IMG/VR virus record: IMGVR_UViG_3300020045_004115
Span: 1-38,619 of that record
Length of the DNA stretch: 38,619 nt
Reading direction: 5' to 3' (one strand)
From: a virus
Taxonomy: Duplodnaviria; Caudoviricetes
Shown: piece by piece, positions 778 to 11,240 of the stretch
Position numbering within the stretch: the first letter of the stretch is position 1
How the letters are laid out: the number at the start of each line of letters is the position of its first letter
Notes under the pieces: generated by a model
Seen by the model: the letters and a program-made list of their open reading frames with translations, nothing else
The model's database searches: none
Told to the model about the DNA's origin: nothing
Translations under genes and position numbers: made by a program

Positions 778-996
778 TCACACTTTTGCTCTGTATACCT
801 TTTTTTGTATCTCAATCTCCATCATCTTACCATCTGAGTTGAAAGATAGGATAGCTTTTCCGTTCTTAGTATCGAACACTCCGCCGTCGATTATCTCTTT
901 TAATTCGATGTAATACTTTTGAAACACTAAAAGTCTCTGTGCGTCAAGAGCTGTCAAGAGTACGTTAACTTCTCTAGCTTCTCCAGTCGTCTGCAT
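778..996 (-). CDS. Hypothetical protein between TerL and portal
   Basis: ORF track 778..1005; ATG at 996 in the genome's typical ctATG context; overlaps the TerL stop. Confidence 0.65.
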   Translation of the reverse strand: MQTTGEAREVNVLLTALDAQRLLVFQKYYIELKEIIDGGVFDTKNGKAILSFNSDGKMMEIEIQKKVYRAKV

Positions 997-3487
997 AGGT
1001 GTCAAAGTTATGCTGTGGGGCTGGCATACCGCTTAATGAATCAAAGCCTGGCTTACCTGGAATAGAAATCTGTTTACCGAATATCTCTGCGTTACCTATT
1101 CCGAATCTATCCATGCCACATCTCCAATAAGCAAGCGCAAGTACGAAATCATCGCGATCAGAGCGTAGCCATTTATATTTAATTCTTCCTTGCGCGTCTT
1201 CTTCTGCTACTCGATAGATATGACTGAAGTGAGTCCAAAGCGGCATCCAGTCCTCTTTTGTGCCTTGTAGCGCAATTCTCTTGTCTCCTAACTCATCAAT
1301 GACTAATTGAAGTAATCTATTTCGATCCGCAATAACTCGTCCAGCTTCATCATTCTCACCCCAGCGGATAATCTGCATCGACTTCTTGTCTTCTTGAAAG
1401 AAACAAAGGAAAACTCTACCCGGGTATTTTTCTCTTAACTTACGAGGACCGATAATATCTCCTCCTTGGTCAATAACCATTACAGAGGTTGGCCAACGCT
1501 TTAAGAACTCTTCTAAGTCAGAATAGTCTTTACACTCTCCCATGTAAAATACTGAATCCTTATTCCCGATAACGTAGCGAATATCAACTCCGGTATCAAC
1601 TCCAATAACGATCTTCCCGTCCTGCATGTTTACCTTATCAGTGAGATTACGCCAAATAAAGTCTTCTGTTACCTTGTTTCCTCCTCCAACGTATGGAAGC
1701 CCTAGAACTTTGTTTGTGAAGTATTCTTCCGATTTGGTTTCTTTATAGCCGATGATTTCCTTCGCAGAAACCCGTGGACATATAAGAAGTGGAATCCAAT
1801 ATCCTGATAACGGACGGTTCTTGTATTTTTGTACCCAGCGACCGCGTCTTCTAACATCATCAGTAACCTCTTCGTTGCAGGCTTTGCACACATATATCTC
1901 TCGTTCTAAATCAATGGACTCAGGCCAGCTTATGTATTGCTCTTTCTTGCAGTGTTCACATGTAATAAACCAATGCTTCTGGTCGGATCTGTCCCAATGC
2001 TTAGATACTCCATTTCCTGGCACGGAGGGATGAGAGAAGTACCATTGTCTTTTAAGTTTAGAGTGCTGTAGACGTGTAGCGTAGCCCTCGATAACCTCTT
2101 GATTACTCGCATCTACTTCATCATAAGCATTTAGATCAGACGAAACCATCATTGCGGCTTTCTGTGAAAACGTACCACGATAGTAAACAATGTTATCTCC
2201 TACGGTCTTTTGTTCTACAGTGTCTTTTTCCTTTACCCATTCTTGATAAATAGGATTCTGCGCAATGATACGATTTGTTTTACCTCCTGCGAACTGACGC
2301 ATGTCCTCGTTTGTAGGAAGCGTATTGCCTGTCCAATAACATCTACCGCCACGTCTAGCATAAAATGTGCCTTGTGGAGTTCTCGGACACCACACTTTTA
2401 TTCTTTCCAATGAAACACTTGGTTTCAACTCGCGCGTATAAACCTCTCCAAACTGAGTCATTCTTATGGTGTAAGCACCGTTTTTCCCAGGCTTAATTAC
2501 ACTAGGTACATAACCACCAAGCACAGCTATCATCGTTATGATGTCAACGCAGTCCTTATCTTTTTGAGCAATCGCTAACGTACCTGAGCTATCAATCCAA
2601 CCATCTCCTCTAACAAATGTTTCTATAAAAATTTTGCACTGTCCGCTTGTAAGTCTAGCAGCAAAGTCGGCTGTCGGCACTTTATTCGGAAAATCATTTT
2701 TAATTTTTTTACCCAGCTCAAATGCAAACCTAAAATTTATCATCCCATGATGACCGCTGTATTCTTTCCAGTGAGTGTTGTTTGACCTGAGTAACGAACG
2801 AATTTCTTCACAGTTTTCCTGATTAACTGTTGCTGATTGAGAAATTATAATTGAGCTATCTTTCTTATTCTTTTGTTTACAGTAATAGCCCTCAGAAAAT
2901 ATCCATGCCAATAACGCCACGTACTCATCAGAAAAATACTTCTTAACCGTTGGATTATTTGGTGCTTTCTTAGGAATATACCTACAAACATTACTTAGAT
3001 CCTTTGATTCAAGGAACTCTAGCTTATTTCCTAAGTTTTTAACTAGCCAGCGATGATTATCCGTGGTTACTGCATCAAAGTTTCTCCCCTTAAACCTATA
3101 TACAGTTGTTTCAACTTCTTTTATGAAAACCTCTTCTACTTTTGTCCAACGCGCAACCCCATCCATGCCTAATGTTAGAAGCTCGTCGTCGAGTGTCAAG
3201 TCTACTCCGTTAACAAATCCTCTTTTAGTTAGAGCTTCAGTTTCTAAATCTACACAGTAAATAATATCAATCTTCTTGTTCTTTGCGATAAAGAGTACTG
3301 CAAGAATAGCTGAGAGAGAAAAACCAATCTGTGCGCCTTTGTAAGCCACTACGTCGCGTTCTAACGATACTAAATCACTTAGTACATCAAACATGTATGG
3401 GTGGTCTCTGAAATCAACGGGGACTCCTGATTCCGTTTTTATTCCATACTTCTGTATGTGTGCGTGTATTGAAAGATTCTCTAACAT
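974..3487 (-). CDS. terL: Terminase large subunit (lambda gpA-like) with intein
   Basis: KGAQIGFS P-loop-like motif, AYDEVD Walker B, FSHPSVPG, CEHC/CKAC zinc motif, VIGVDTG nuclease motif. ATG 3487 overlaps the upstream TAA (TAATG). Confidence 0.9.
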   Translation of the reverse strand: MLENLSIHAHIQKYGIKTESGVPVDFRDHPYMFDVLSDLVSLERDVVAYKGAQIGFSLSAILAVLFIAKNKKIDIIYCVDLETEALTKRGFVNGVDLTLDDELLTLGMDGVARWTKVEEVFIKEVETTVYRFKGRNFDAVTTDNHRWLVKNLGNKLEFLESKDLSNVCRYIPKKAPNNPTVKKYFSDEYVALLAWIFSEGYYCKQKNKKDSSIIISQSATVNQENCEEIRSLLRSNNTHWKEYSGHHGMINFRFAFELGKKIKNDFPNKVPTADFAARLTSGQCKIFIETFVRGDGWIDSSGTLAIAQKDKDCVDIITMIAVLGGYVPSVIKPGKNGAYTIRMTQFGEVYTRELKPSVSLERIKVWCPRTPQGTFYARRGGRCYWTGNTLPTNEDMRQFAGGKTNRIIAQNPIYQEWVKEKDTVEQKTVGDNIVYYRGTFSQKAAMMVSSDLNAYDEVDASNQEVIEGYATRLQHSKLKRQWYFSHPSVPGNGVSKHWDRSDQKHWFITCEHCKKEQYISWPESIDLEREIYVCKACNEEVTDDVRRRGRWVQKYKNRPLSGYWIPLLICPRVSAKEIIGYKETKSEEYFTNKVLGLPYVGGGNKVTEDFIWRNLTDKVNMQDGKIVIGVDTGVDIRYVIGNKDSVFYMGECKDYSDLEEFLKRWPTSVMVIDQGGDIIGPRKLREKYPGRVFLCFFQEDKKSMQIIRWGENDEAGRVIADRNRLLQLVIDELGDKRIALQGTKEDWMPLWTHFSHIYRVAEEDAQGRIKYKWLRSDRDDFVLALAYWRCGMDRFGIGNAEIFGKQISIPGKPGFDSLSGMPAPQHNFDTYADDWRS
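2324..3256 (-). mobile_element. Intein (311 aa) with LAGLIDADG homing endonuclease in TerL
   Basis: IIY|CVDLETEALT start, TTDNHRW block B, LLAWIFSEG and FVRGDG LAGLIDADG motifs, WTGN|TLPT end. Confidence 0.92.
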
Positions 3488-3705
3488 TACCAAGCAATTA
3501 TGTCTTCGCCTATTCTTAGGCGGTATGTATTTATTTCTCTTCCATTATCTTTTGTTCCGTCTTCGTAAAGATAAAGCCCGCCAAGAGAACCGGTGCACTT
3601 ATTACCTTTATTACAAGCATTCATTACTTTTACTTCGGCTTTTTCTATGTCGATGTTGCCGAACTGTCTCTCCACTTCTTCAATTGAATTGAATCCGTAA
3701 AACAT
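3487..3705 (-). CDS. Hypothetical protein
   Basis: ORF tightly coupled between TerS and TerL. Confidence 0.65.
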   Translation of the reverse strand: MFYGFNSIEEVERQFGNIDIEKAEVKVMNACNKGNKCTGSLGGLYLYEDGTKDNGREINTYRLRIGEDIIAW

Positions 3706-4176: not shown

Positions 4177-4338
4177 TTATTCAAATAAAGCTCCGAGGAA
4201 TCCTGCCACGAAAGCTAGGGTAAAAGCTAACGCCATGAGAGAGACATAAATTACTCCCACTACAAAAGCAGTCTTCTCGTACCATCTGTTGAGTGTCCAT
4301 TCGTTCTTGTGGCGTTCTTCGTTGTATAAGAATTTCAT
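4177..4338 (-). CDS. Small membrane protein (53 aa)
   Basis: Read by hand: MKFLYNEERHK...AFVVGVIYVSLMALAFTLAFVAGFLGALFE; coupled to both neighbours. Confidence 0.65.
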   Translation of the reverse strand: MKFLYNEERHKNEWTLNRWYEKTAFVVGVIYVSLMALAFTLAFVAGFLGALFE

Positions 4339-4586
4339 AGTTTTGCTAAAATGTCTGTCTCTTCTAAAATAAGATACTTAATGTTTTCAATCTCTACTTC
4401 ATCAGGGGCGTACTTCTTGAAGATGATGGTATCCCCTTCCTTAACGTACTTACACGCTTCTCCAGCGTATTTAACGGTTCCTTTGATAGGTTTGTCAGTA
4501 GGGGAGTGGGAGAGGATGAAACCTGATGCGGTTGTTTCTTTCTTTTCTTCTCGCTCTACTACTACGAAATTATGGAGTGGGGTCAT
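4335..4586 (-). CDS. groES: Co-chaperonin GroES (Cpn10)
   Basis: PLHNFVVVE, ETTASGFIL mobile loop, VKEGDTIIFKKY, YLILEETDILA. Confidence 0.93.
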   Translation of the reverse strand: MTPLHNFVVVEREEKKETTASGFILSHSPTDKPIKGTVKYAGEACKYVKEGDTIIFKKYAPDEVEIENIKYLILEETDILAKL

Positions 4587-5536: not shown

Positions 5537-7308
<1,772 letters not shown>

Positions 7309-7351
7309 GAAGATATTATACTCTTTTTTTCTTATCTCGTCCTGTGGATAA
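7309..7351 (-). promoter_or_regulatory. Leftward promoter giving a probable leaderless mRNA, with a perfect DnaA box
   Basis: TATAAT (7320-7315) is 6 nt from ATG 7308; TTATCCACA at 7351-7343. Confidence 0.6.
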
Positions 7352-7415
7352 ACTTTTCTGATATACTTAATCCCTATTCACACGGCTATCAAAGGACTGT
7401 GTAAATAACTGCAAG

Positions 7416-7445
7416 AAAGCACTGAGCATACGCGGTGCTTTTTTG
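7416..7445 (+). terminator. Intrinsic terminator
   Basis: aaagcactg / cggtgcttt stem followed by a T run. Confidence 0.7.
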
Positions 7446-7449
7446 TTAC

Positions 7450-7478
7450 TTGAAATTTTAGTATTTATGTGCTATGAT
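7450..7478 (+). promoter_or_regulatory. Sigma70-type promoter for the replication operon
   Basis: TTGAAA-17 nt-TATGAT with extended TG. Confidence 0.7.
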
Positions 7479-7484
7479 GTTTTA

Positions 7485-7618
7485 GTCCTCCTGATAAAGG
7501 ACGTGAAAGCAACTAGACATTAAAGATCCTGTTTCATAGTTCACCCACTTATGCCCACGGGCAGCCGACTAGTTGCGGTTATCAGTTGGTGAGGTGGGCT
7601 ATGAAGTGGGATTTTTTT
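7485..7618 (+). ncRNA. Structured leader/attenuator RNA upstream of the replication initiator
   Basis: 21-bp stem 7525-7545/7593-7613 plus U run; upstream CTGATAA and GCAACTAG match TTATCAG and CTAGTTGC inside it. Confidence 0.65.
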
Positions 7619-7631
7619 GTACGATCTTTAT

Positions 7632-8441
7632 ATGACAATAGGATGGGTTCGGCTACATCGAAAAATTTTAGAGAGTTCACTGTTTCAAAACCACAACGCT
7701 TTTATAGTATTTAGTGCGTGCCTCATGTTAGCGTCCCATGAAAAAAAGAAGTTCCCATTTAATGGCTCCGATGTTGAAATCGAACCAGGGGAGTTTATAA
7801 CGGGAATATACAGACTAGCAGAACAAACGTGTCTGTCACCAAGAAAGGTAAGAACTGCGCTTGACTACCTAAAAACGACAAGCAGATTGACAATCAAAAC
7901 AAGCAACAAATTTAGCTTAGTTAAGATAAATAAGTGGGTAGAGTATCAGACAAACGACAAGCAGTCTGACAAACAAATGACAAACAAACGACAAACAAAT
8001 GACTACAATCAAGAATTAAAAGAATTAAAGAATTATAATTCAGTGGCAGAAGCCACAAACCTAATTCAAATCGGACTAGAGAAATTCCCTATGGAAGAAC
8101 TAACCTACGAACCTGAGTTTACTAAAAAGAAAAAGTCCAAGCACGGAAGCCAGACAATGGCGCAACTAGTTAGAAGCTACGCAGACATAACAGGGGTTGA
8201 GATTAGAGGCACTTTCGATGGCGGCCCGTGGGCAACCTCGCTATCAACGATGTACCAATACTTCGGAAAAGACTTTGACAAAACAGTAAGCTACTTGAAA
8301 CGCGCAGTGACATTTTATAAAAGTATAAACCGATCATTCTCAATCAATACTTTACAGAACGTCCCTGACATCGAACGATTGATAAAGGAGCAGGCCAACG
8401 AATCAGATGAAAAATTTAATTCAGGAATTTACGATAACTAA
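7632..8441 (+). CDS. Phage replication initiator (replisome organizer type)
   Basis: GWVRLHRKI N-terminus, HTH region (LAEQTCLSPRKVRTAL..L), internal iterons, helicase downstream. Confidence 0.8.
   Translation: MTIGWVRLHRKILESSLFQNHNAFIVFSACLMLASHEKKKFPFNGSDVEIEPGEFITGIYRLAEQTCLSPRKVRTALDYLKTTSRLTIKTSNKFSLVKINKWVEYQTNDKQSDKQMTNKRQTNDYNQELKELKNYNSVAEATNLIQIGLEKFPMEELTYEPEFTKKKKSKHGSQTMAQLVRSYADITGVEIRGTFDGGPWATSLSTMYQYFGKDFDKTVSYLKRAVTFYKSINRSFSINTLQNVPDIERLIKEQANESDEKFNSGIYDN
7952..8040 (+). repeat. Iteron-like repeats and AT-rich unwinding region: putative replication origin
   Basis: GACAAACAAA(T/C) x3 in tandem (7968-8000), AAGAATTA x3 (8011-8035); AAACGACAAGCAG also at 7873. Confidence 0.7.
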
Positions 8442-8443
8442 CT

Positions 8444-9337
8444 ATGAGCAAGTACTTAGAAGAATCACTTAAGCAAGGACGTGACTACGATCAAATTACA
8501 CCACTCTCGCTTTATTCGTACGAAGACCTGCTGTTAAAACTTCGTGTGGAGCCTAAAACAGCGTCTGTGAGCGTTGGAAACGACGAACTTGATGAAGTAC
8601 TCGGAGGACTAGAGAGAGGCCGCTTATACGTCCTTTCAGCCCCTACCAAGCAAGGAAAGACAACCCTTGCTCAAACCATGATGTTTGATATGTCAAAAAA
8701 GAATATCGGATCATTGTTTTTCTCCTACGAAATGGGCTGGCAAGAGGTAACCAAGAAATTTATGTCGATGGACGGACTACAAGCACCGACAGGCACGCCA
8801 TCAAAACTCCCACTTTTTATGCCGCTTGAATTACATCGAGGCGGAGGAGACCTACAGTTTCAGTGGCTTTACGAGGCCATTGTGAAAGGTATGGCAGAAA
8901 ATAACGTACAGTTTGTAGTTATCGACCATCTTCACTTTCTTTTACCACTGAAAGACTACCAGAACACCTCTTTTCTTATTGGTGGAATTGTCCGCGAGAT
9001 CAAGCGCATGGCAGTAAACTTAAACATTCCGATAATGCTTATCACACACGTTCAGAAAATTAAAGACGACAAAGTCCCTGACTGGACAGATATTCGAGAC
9101 TCGTCGTTTATTACCCAAGAAGCAGATGTTGTTTTGATGATGTACCGCTTAAAAAATAAAGAGGCAGCGAAAAAAACCACAGACGATAATGATATGGACG
9201 TATATACAAAAAAAGCAATTCTATCTGTGGAGCTTGACCGCGTTAAAGGTGTAAGCCAAAAGATTAAACTATGGCACAACGGAACAAAGTTTGAGCCATA
9301 TAATAACCAAGACAAATATGAAACCGCTCGACGCTAA
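8444..9337 (+). CDS. DnaB-like replicative helicase (C-terminal ATPase domain only)
   Basis: LDEVLGG, APTKQGKTT Walker A, FSYEM, VVIDHLHF, IRDSSFITQEADVV. Confidence 0.9.
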   Translation: MSKYLEESLKQGRDYDQITPLSLYSYEDLLLKLRVEPKTASVSVGNDELDEVLGGLERGRLYVLSAPTKQGKTTLAQTMMFDMSKKNIGSLFFSYEMGWQEVTKKFMSMDGLQAPTGTPSKLPLFMPLELHRGGGDLQFQWLYEAIVKGMAENNVQFVVIDHLHFLLPLKDYQNTSFLIGGIVREIKRMAVNLNIPIMLITHVQKIKDDKVPDWTDIRDSSFITQEADVVLMMYRLKNKEAAKKTTDDNDMDVYTKKAILSVELDRVKGVSQKIKLWHNGTKFEPYNNQDKYETARR

Positions 9338-10115: not shown

Positions 10116-10158
10116 TGGATAAGTGCTACTTGACACACTGTAACCACTGTGATATATT
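10114..10158 (+). promoter_or_regulatory. Strong sigma70 promoter, copy 1, with DnaA-like box
   Basis: AGTGGATAA (10114-10122), TTGACA (10130)-17 nt-TATATT (10153). Confidence 0.8.
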
Positions 10159-10164
10159 AGATTC

Positions 10165-10252
10165 ATCAGGACAGAAGCTCATAGAGTTTCTGAAAGCTGG
10201 ACGGGGTGGGAATAGGCTACGGCTTAATCCCTCCCCACGAAAGCCACTTGAT
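10165..10252 (+). ncRNA. Three-way-junction structured RNA starting at the predicted +1
   Basis: ATCAGG/CTTGAT closing stem, 9-bp hairpin 10172-10192, long hairpin 10203-10236 capped by a C(UACG)G tetraloop. Confidence 0.65.
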
Positions 10253-10263
10253 AACGAAACTAT

Positions 10264-11203: not shown

Positions 11204-11240
11204 TTATCCACTTGACACACTGTACACCCTGTGATATAGT
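11204..11240 (+). promoter_or_regulatory. Strong sigma70 promoter, copy 2, with abutting DnaA-like box
   Basis: TTATCCACT overlapping TTGACA (11212)-17 nt-TATAGT (11235); spacer nearly identical to copy 1. Confidence 0.8.

What the first reader, a model, noticed from the sequence alone, without database searches (positions are those of the whole stretch)
7485..7618. Pseudoknot/antisense switch upstream of the replication initiator
Seen: a 5' hairpin exposes CTGATAA (7491-7497), followed by GCAACTAG (7509-7516). Both are exact complements of TTATCAG (7579-7585) and CTAGTTGC (7569-7576), which sit in an inner hairpin of a 21-bp terminator-like stem ending in U7. Established analogy: bipartite RNA control by P4 CI and P1/P7 C4 RNAs. 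Inference: RNA-only control of replication (copy number or immunity) in a phage with no visible repressor or integrase, suggesting a possible plasmid-like carrier state.
Basis: partly seen in the sequence, partly recalled or inferred. Interest (0 to 1): 0.75.

Follow-up and report, generated by a model that had tools for sequence, protein, structure and literature searches.

The report
C4-like attenuator before phage replication genes
Just ahead of this uncultured phage's DNA-replication genes lies a leader predicted to fold into a three-armed RNA whose two exposed segments match two boxes at its own front end; related phages keep this layout with different but matching letters, so it is likely an RNA switch in which prematurely stopped copies would shut off further transcription of the replication genes, much as known RNAs of phages P1 and P4 do.

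Summary
Behind a sigma-70-like promoter (7450-7478), the leader 7484-7618 folds into a three-way junction: a 24-bp stem ending in U7, with loop b' and linker a' matching upstream boxes b1 and a1 (0 of 2000 shuffles). It is the only such fold in the 38.6-kb phage and precedes the initiator and helicase. Seventeen similar elements, mostly before initiators of several families, keep the layout with different but cognate boxes (own match 12.6 versus 7.2 letters; 0 of 100000 permutations). Topology is that of P1/P7 C4; logic is that of P4 CI. It is not an Rfam member and lacks a downstream target. In 12 of 18 elements the boxes sit on the start of a 29-60-codon leader frame crossing the whole fold, pointing to ribosome-gated attenuation. 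The window itself has only a weak CTG/GTG mini-frame. A pseudoknot with the stem intact is sterically unlikely. Best reading (0.6): terminated leaders act in trans to force termination, limiting replication and excluding same-type phages. No RNA data exist, and the carrier state is unshown. This scan noted the same class on other DNA at least 19 times.

The parts
7412..7445 (+). terminator-like hairpin with T-run, likely insulating the promoter from upstream transcription
   Evidence: inverted repeat I17; role inferred
7450..7478 (+). sigma-70-type promoter: -35 TTGAAA, 17-nt spacer, extended -10 TG-TATGAT; start predicted near 7484
   Evidence: 10 of 12 consensus letters. A contig in runs X3/X4 shares the DNA up to 7483 and then continues with other letters.
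7485..7502 (+). 5' hairpin presenting box a1 in its loop
7491..7497 (+). target box a1 (complement of a')
7491..7523 (+). possible mini reading frame (CTG 7491 or GTG 7503 to TAA 7521-7523) that stops just before the long stem; translation doubtful
   Evidence: The X4 variant keeps a start codon at 7503 (GTG to TTG). 51 of 60 starts in this phage are T-ATG.
7509..7516 (+). target box b1 (complement of b')
7526..7549 (+). P1, 5' arm of the long closing stem
7552..7563 (+). P2, small inner hairpin
7564..7579 (+). P3, inner hairpin whose loop carries b' (7569-7576)
7579..7585 (+). a', single-stranded linker of the junction
7588..7612 (+). P1, 3' arm
7612..7618 (+). U7 tract directly after P1, predicted intrinsic termination site
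   Evidence: A run of 4 or more T follows P1 in 17 of 18 elements. The plain terminator scan does not call it, since it allows loops of 3-8 only.
7632..8441 (+). replication initiator (DnaD-like / lambda O-like), with iteron-like repeats at 7868-7997
8444..9337 (+). DnaB-like helicase, second gene of the gated unit; the next strong promoter-like site is at 10130

Best explanation
The leader is likely a self-targeting transcription attenuator of C4/CI design that gates the initiator and helicase genes: transcripts that fold the long stem are predicted to stop at U7, and these finished copies would bind the two front boxes of new transcripts and force them to stop too. Shown: the sequence, the fold, the cognate boxes and their recurrence before initiators. 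Inferred, step 1: early in infection no finished RNA exists, so something prevents P1 and polymerase reads into rep. In most relatives this is probably a ribosome on a leader frame that starts inside a1/b1 and crosses the fold. In this window it is more probably cis pairing of b1 with b' (and a1 with a'), which traps the 5' arm of P1 in a loop; a weak CTG/GTG mini-frame may help. Inferred, step 2: terminated RNA builds up with gene dosage. Its a' and b' stay exposed because its own boxes cannot reach over the long stem. Inferred, step 3: it pairs with a1/b1 during the roughly 50 nt before b' is made, blocks the ribosome or the cis pairing, and P1 then closes and terminates. The result would be negative feedback on replication and exclusion of phages with the same box letters.
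For: The nested match is beyond chance (0 of 2000) and the fold is unique in the genome. In 18 elements the own-box score averages 12.6 against 7.2 for 306 non-cognate pairs; it is the strict best in 13 of 18, and 0 of 100000 permutations reach it. L202 and L256 are alignable homologs with the same a1/a' and P2 but different, still matching b1/b'. In L202/L256/L205, P1 has 12 of 22 pairs changed on both sides and 98.5% of cells paired. A U-run follows P1 in 17 of 18. The next long gene is an initiator by PHROGs for this window, for 6 of 6 elements and for 6 of 8. The sense strand folds better in 15 of 18, with 44 G-U among 353 P1 pairs. ATG lies at a1 in 9 of 18 (about 15% expected). The 8 of these without a Shine-Dalgarno-type a1 all stay open for 31-56 codons, against 0 of 16 other frames. 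In L051, L272 and L275 a1 is a Shine-Dalgarno-like word and b1 holds the start codon. A strain variant has 2 changes in the leader against about 18 in the next 150 coding bases. A different leader joins the same promoter DNA exactly at the predicted start, as specificity swapping would give. Precedent: P4 CI terminates its replication operon (PMC4825925), and C4 loops cover ribosome sites (PMC5320573).
Against: No transcript, end or reporter was seen. At equilibrium P1 wins by 22 kcal/mol over forced a/b pairing. It takes over about 16-20 nt before the U-run whether or not a1/b1 are blocked, so folding energies alone show no switch in this window and a kinetic trap must be assumed. The window has no ATG at a1; its mini-frame starts CTG/GTG in a phage whose starts are T-ATG in 51 of 60. 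6 of 18 elements have only short frames or none. One of the two variant changes (7509) removes a b1:b' pair without compensation. No downstream target is conserved, unlike C4 and CI. Four cognate scores are weak (10-11 in L206, L211, L260, L315, also L049), and in L209 and L315 the boxes overlap a second promoter-like site. The 18 were hand-picked from 56 descriptor hits in relatives plus the window, by stem length, U-run and position. Sequence cannot give the sign of a trans effect.
Confidence: 0.6

Rival explanations
1. Cis-only attenuator: a1/b1 pair with a'/b' inside the nascent RNA (or a leader ribosome blocks P1) and set a fixed or condition-dependent read-through fraction; finished RNAs do nothing in trans.
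For: Cis pairs are part of the minimum-energy fold of partial transcripts in 9 of 10 elements, although any 10-15 complementary letters would give that. The b1-to-b' spacing is similar (52-60 nt in 7 of 10). No second target exists.
Against: A cis switch needs no box diversity, yet the boxes differ between alignable homologs and the leader is swapped at the start site. Where the leader frame starts in a1, cis pairing and translation pull in different directions.
Confidence: 0.16
2. Trans activator, as for Gifsy-1 IsrK: cis pairing hides the leader start (off), and finished RNAs free it by binding a'/b' with their own front boxes, giving positive feedback on replication.
For: IsrK, a structural relative of P4 seqA, activates its own read-through message in trans (PMC4825925 section 21). 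Finished RNAs keep free a1/b1.
Against: The start is exposed for about 50 nt of transcription before b' exists, so a ribosome could load first. With no repressor found, positive feedback would have no brake.
Confidence: 0.09
3. Stable pseudoknot: a1/b1 dock on a'/b' while P1 stays formed, and this fold itself (for example by controlling processing) is the regulator.
For: All four boxes are mostly unpaired in the full fold. Elements with short P1 have 16-44-nt linkers that could reach.
Against: Here 9 nt must span a 24-bp stem; it is 5-9 nt against 21-30 bp in L202, L206, L209, L256 and L259. With about 2.8 A per base pair and at most 6-7 A per free base (recalled values) this does not fit without opening the stem.
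Confidence: 0.06
4. Plasmid-type counter-transcript: an RNA from the opposite strand controls the leader, as CopA does for tap-repA.
For: A 9-of-12 promoter-like site lies on the minus strand at 7638-7611. Leader frames end near the initiator start in many relatives, like tap (PMC5717011 passages).
Against: That site is at chance level (2 found, 4.2 expected). The minus strand folds worse (-25.2 versus -38.5). A counter-transcript does not need internal a/b complements.
Confidence: 0.04
5. Translational control through the Shine-Dalgarno-like word (7591-7596) and ATG 7601 buried in P1.
For: A database homolog (P0002, 57% identical) is called with an in-frame N-terminal extension that matches this arm.
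Against: Only 3 of 60 genes here have such a word. In this window ATG 7601 is out of frame with rep, and four runs show no indel there. The X4 change at 7650 puts a stop into that frame. Relatives do not keep the arrangement.
Confidence: 0.03
6. Chance, or a DNA-level inverted repeat (cruciform, protein site).
For: Long inverted repeats are common near origins, and iteron-like repeats lie 250 bases downstream.
Against: Shuffle, permutation and covariation results, G-U pairs with strand bias, and the position between promoter and U-run.
Confidence: 0.02

Closest known systems
C4 antisense RNA of phages P1/P7 (Rfam RF01695) with a1/b1 targets (RF03163); c4-2 (RF02944)
   Same: Long closing stem, two inner hairpins, a variable P3 loop and a short 3' linker (model consensus printed). 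Two upstream target boxes, the first in a 5' hairpin. Targets at translation starts (PMC5320573 passages). One relative found through the initiator, L066, is a true member (47.3 bits).
   Different: No model scores the window or 5 relatives. No downstream a2/b2. The gated gene is the initiator, not icd/ant. P1 abuts a U-run. In 12 of 18 elements, L066 among them, the leader frame starts upstream and runs through the RNA. RNase P release is untested.
Satellite phage P4 immunity: CI RNA with seqA and seqC
   Same: An RNA from the leader of the replication operon causes premature termination; no repressor protein (PMC4825925 section 21; PMC3632133 passage).
   Different: No seqC-like downstream target and no IsrK/seqA model match. 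This is a self-sufficient tailed phage with capsid and terminase genes and a lambda-O/DnaD-type initiator. No integrase was found.
Gifsy-1 IsrK (RF01394)
   Same: A terminated leader RNA acts in trans on its own read-through message, and a small frame is coupled to the next gene.
   Different: IsrK activates and has its complementary region downstream; no model match.
Plasmid R1 CopA / tap / repA and antisense attenuators of plasmid replication
   Same: RNA-RNA control of an initiator through a leader frame or through attenuation (PMC5717011 passages).
   Different: Those RNAs come from the opposite strand; here effector and target lie on one strand of one transcript.

Membership tests
C4 antisense RNA (RF01695) | score at or above the gathering threshold (45 bits) | tested here: not met
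   no hit at gathering, at E<=10 in 7100-7800 or in the record; 0 of 5 relatives
C4 antisense RNA (RF01695) | three stems with exposed P3 loop and 3' linker | tested here: met
   against the model structure shown
C4 antisense RNA (RF01695) | upstream targets a1/b1 complementary to the exposed segments | tested here: met
   the c4-a1b1 model itself does not score
C4 antisense RNA (RF01695) | downstream targets a2/b2 at the start of the regulated gene | tested here: not met
   best nested match within 200 nt downstream is 10 letters against 15 upstream; none consistent in 6 relatives
C4 antisense RNA (RF01695) | release by RNase P | not testable with these tools
   no RNA holder listed
c4-2 (RF02944) | model score (41 bits) | tested here: not met
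P4 CI / seqA / seqC | RNA encoded in the leader of the replication operon with an upstream complementary target | tested here: met
P4 CI / seqA / seqC | downstream target seqC | tested here: not met
P4 CI / seqA / seqC | RNA-dependent premature termination and immunity | not testable with these tools
   needs reporters
Plasmid counter-transcribed copy-number RNAs | promoter and terminator on the opposite strand | tested here: inconclusive
   one chance-level site; weaker minus-strand fold
Phage-plasmid (carrier state) | partition or maintenance genes, no integrase | tested here: inconclusive
   no PF00589, PF00239 or PF13614 match in 5 of 5 records; absence shows neither lifestyle

The most novel reading that the evidence does not exclude
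A widespread, uncatalogued family of small tailed phages that lack integrase and repressor controls replication with one 130-nt module that is at once leader-peptide gene, terminator and its own antisense repressor. The finished RNA covers the start codon of the frame that encodes it, needs no processing because its long stem keeps its own targets out of reach, and defines exclusion groups by two interchangeable boxes of 5-9 letters. This would let such phages persist at controlled copy number without any regulatory protein.
Probability: 0.25. Interest if true: 0.75.

Novelty: new variant of a known kind. Interest (0 to 1): 0.5.

Why it matters
It extends C4/CI-type RNA control beyond P1, P7 and P4 to ordinary initiator-helicase modules of uncultured phages, where Rfam does not see it. 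The match of the target boxes to a leader start codon gives a concrete, testable way for such an RNA to cause termination with only an upstream target. Natural cognate pairs are a ready set of possibly orthogonal attenuators and a marker for phage exclusion groups. Interest is tempered because the principle is known from P4 and P1, nothing is shown at RNA level, and this window is one of the less clear members for the leader frame.

Tried and rejected
Rfam: no hit for the window. In 11 helicase-related loci only a tRNA. Exact-pattern scans of viral contigs: 14 chance hits without the rest of the element, and 0 hits. Initiator scans with single proteins found nothing, nor did the genome collection. 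The DNA of the closest homologs (P0002, P0003) could not be fetched. No RNA holder was listed among public runs; this is no evidence either way. Runs X5 and X6 laid nothing on the leader and X9 only upstream DNA. Host: GroEL is only 49-53% identical to cellular ones, and cluster look-ups and the Atlas gave no host. Lack of Shine-Dalgarno sites with sigma-70-like promoters would fit Patescibacteria (recalled, not tested; searches seen as listings only). No close relative among cultured phages or plasmids. A first loose detector was unspecific and timed out. Sequence-only alignments of distant elements were unusable, so no covariance model was built. A downstream a2/b2 site was sought and not found. 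The Shine-Dalgarno/ATG 7601 reading was rejected. L200, L203 and L024 show variant layouts with upstream complements but fail the two-hairpin descriptor and were not counted; L207, L208, L210 and L212 show no such element. Literature: searches found no paper describing this family. The supplements of PMC5737381, the text supplement of PMC2864571 and 3 of 6 files of PMC10690425 could not be read, and may hold a matching unnamed motif.

Full report
Setting. The window is a whole 38,619-base virus record, estimated complete, without end repeats. It encodes terminase, portal, capsid, GroEL/GroES and tail proteins on the minus strand, and an initiator, a DnaB-like helicase, Erf and NinG on the plus strand (61 frames scanned). 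The finding lies in the gap where the two blocks diverge. No tyrosine integrase, resolvase or ParA-type ATPase matches in this record or four related ones (0 of 5 each). HTH_3 matches 1 of 5, below cut-off and not here. Only 3 of 60 gene starts carry a Shine-Dalgarno word, and 51 of 60 are T-ATG (counted from the output). The host is unknown.

Observation. A promoter-like site (10 of 12 letters, extended -10) at 7450-7478 puts the start near 7484. The leader folds into a 5' hairpin and then a three-way junction: P1 7526-7549:7588-7612 (24 bp, 6 G-U), P2, P3 with b' in its loop, and a' as linker, followed at once by U7. Folding z is -4.17. The nested 15-letter match is reached by 0 of 2000 shuffles. 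A descriptor that asks only for this topology and stability finds one site on both strands of the window.

Relatives. Close DNA homologs were not in the collections I could scan, so I fetched loci through the initiator (104 loci) and the helicase (39 and 80 loci). The descriptor gave 11 hits in 72 initiator-upstream regions, 15 hits in 34 helicase regions and 30 hits in 64 further regions. I kept 3, 6 and 8 of these, by U-run, stem length and position, not by complementarity. I dropped two duplicates (L253, L274), two irregular GC-rich hits (L309) and L207. With the window this makes 18 elements. Their own upstream region matches their own P3 and linker with 12.6 letters on average, against 7.2 for 306 other pairings. 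The own match is the strict best in 13 of 18 and tied in 2, and 0 of 100000 permutations reach the mean. Two of the three exceptions are elements of one specificity group (L051, L272, with L275). Individual shuffle tests on seven elements were strong for four and weak for three (L206 339, L211 121, L213 79 of 2000). A run of 4 or more T follows P1 in 17 of 18. Seven were first found with a T-run anchor and found again without it. The next long gene is an initiator of one of several families in 6 of 6 elements tested and 6 of 8. L275 has an HNH gene next and L272 an unmatched one. L202, L256 and L205 align: P1 has 12 of 22 pairs changed on both sides and 98.5% of cells paired, while the a and b helices score 78% and 55% because L205's boxes are shifted in the alignment. 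L202 and L256 share a1/a' and differ in b1/b', each matching its own. L066 is a true Rfam C4 with upstream and downstream targets in front of a related initiator, which ties the family to C4.

Strain variation. Contigs of four public runs cover the leader without an indel. One variant (X3, X4) has 2 listed changes in 7484-7639 against about 18 in 7640-7789 (Fisher p 1e-4; one contig type). One change keeps a start codon at 7503; the other costs one b1:b' pair. Another contig in the same runs follows the window up to 7483 and then continues differently. This supports the start site and suggests that leaders are exchanged; only 30 letters of it were shown.

Leader frames. In 9 of 18 elements an ATG lies within a few bases of the a1 start (about 15% expected, p 5e-4). 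Eight of these have no Shine-Dalgarno-type a1, and all eight stay open for 31-56 codons through the fold, whereas all 16 other frames have stops (p 1e-6). In L051, L272 and L275, a1 is a Shine-Dalgarno-like word and b1 holds the start; in L066, b1 is such a word before an ATG. For these four I took the longest frame. So 12 of 18 have a frame of 29-60 codons that starts in or just after the boxes and ends near the U-run or the next start. The other six, the window among them, have short frames or none. Here CTG 7491 (first codon of a1) and GTG 7503 lead to TAA 7521-7523, just before P1. Blocking 7484-7531, as a ribosome there might, removes the base of P1 next to the U-run. Given the T-ATG habit of this phage I put translation of this mini-frame at about 0.3.

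Mechanism. Forced a/b pairing costs 22 kcal/mol against P1 in the full leader, but b1:b' is the best fold for transcripts ending at 7580-7590. Such cis pairs appear in partial transcripts of 9 of 10 elements, which is consistency, not proof. With P1 intact the boxes cannot reach: 9 nt against 24 bp here, 5-9 nt against 21-30 bp in five relatives (helix dimensions recalled). Hence a finished RNA would keep a' and b' free for other molecules (duplex with the 5' leader -20 kcal/mol). Against this, equilibrium folding shows P1 taking over at about 7592-7596 whether or not a1/b1 are blocked, so in this window the switch must be kinetic or ribosome-driven. I commit to trans-acting negative feedback at 0.6; the rivals are listed separately. 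Whether this serves a carrier state (about 0.25) or only tempers and protects a lytic cycle cannot be told from missing genes.

Comparison. It works like P4 CI, which stops transcription of P4's replication genes through seqA and seqC (PMC4825925: passages and section 21 read; PMC3632133: passage). It is shaped like C4 (PMC5320573: passages; PMC2864571: passages and supplement excerpts). It is not a member of either: the models do not score it and the downstream target is missing. c4-2 is named in PMC5737381 (passage; supplement unreadable). The primary P1 and P4 papers were seen only as references. PMC8201110, PMC5717011 and PMC10690425 were seen as passages; 3 of 6 supplements of the last were not searched. 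Searches found no description of this family. The scan's own notes hold 19 findings with the same words on other genomes, none for this record or for a look-alike of the leader sequence. They are leads, not support.

Verdict. A real, conserved C4-like leader; a new variant of a known kind; interest 0.5.

Noticed in passing
window 7543-7577 versus 7930-7939, 8161-8170, 8220-8234: Three adjoining pieces of the leader are complementary (10, 10 and 14 of 15 letters) to the initiator's own coding sequence. 0 of 3000 codon shuffles give three such blocks, but 0 of 5 relatives have any. Noticed after the fact; unexplained.
   Followed up: partly
window 10130-10158 and 11212-11240: Two strong promoter-like sites (11 of 12) share most of their spacer, which contains a short inverted repeat, and each is preceded by a DnaA-box-like word; a possible operator pair.
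   Followed up: no
window 7343-7351 (-); L202, L203, L205, L209, L252 upstream of their promoters: DnaA-box-like words (consensus recalled) precede the replication promoter in several relatives. The word is not enriched in the window as a whole (2 found, 5.2 expected).
   Followed up: partly
window 10165-10255: A second structured leader (two hairpins, -37.6 kcal/mol) lies between the 10130 promoter and the next gene; no Rfam match.
   Followed up: partly
window, all genes: Translation starts lack Shine-Dalgarno words (3 of 60) and are T-ATG in 51 of 60.
   Followed up: partly
window 4335-4586 and 5537-7099: Phage GroES and GroEL; GroEL is only about 50% identical to cellular ones. Contigs of relatives diverge at its start, so it seems to be a variable insert. 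Its start region equals 10 letters of the P1 5' arm, probably chance.
   Followed up: partly
window 8037-8720: A variant in runs X3/X4 keeps the leader and the initiator's N-terminal half but replaces its C-terminal half and the helicase start; P0003 shows the same mosaic at protein level.
   Followed up: no
window 974-3493: The large terminase frame is 839 aa, with the terminase match mainly in residues 389-799; the extra part may be an insertion such as an intein.
   Followed up: no
L209 4927-4954; L315 upstream of 2587: A second promoter-like site overlaps the a1/b1 boxes; it could make an effector RNA without targets, or it could mean that the boxes are misassigned there.
   Followed up: no
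L066 529-761: A true Rfam C4 with targets on both sides, a weak isrK match upstream, and a 60-codon frame crossing the RNA, in front of a related initiator.
   Followed up: partly
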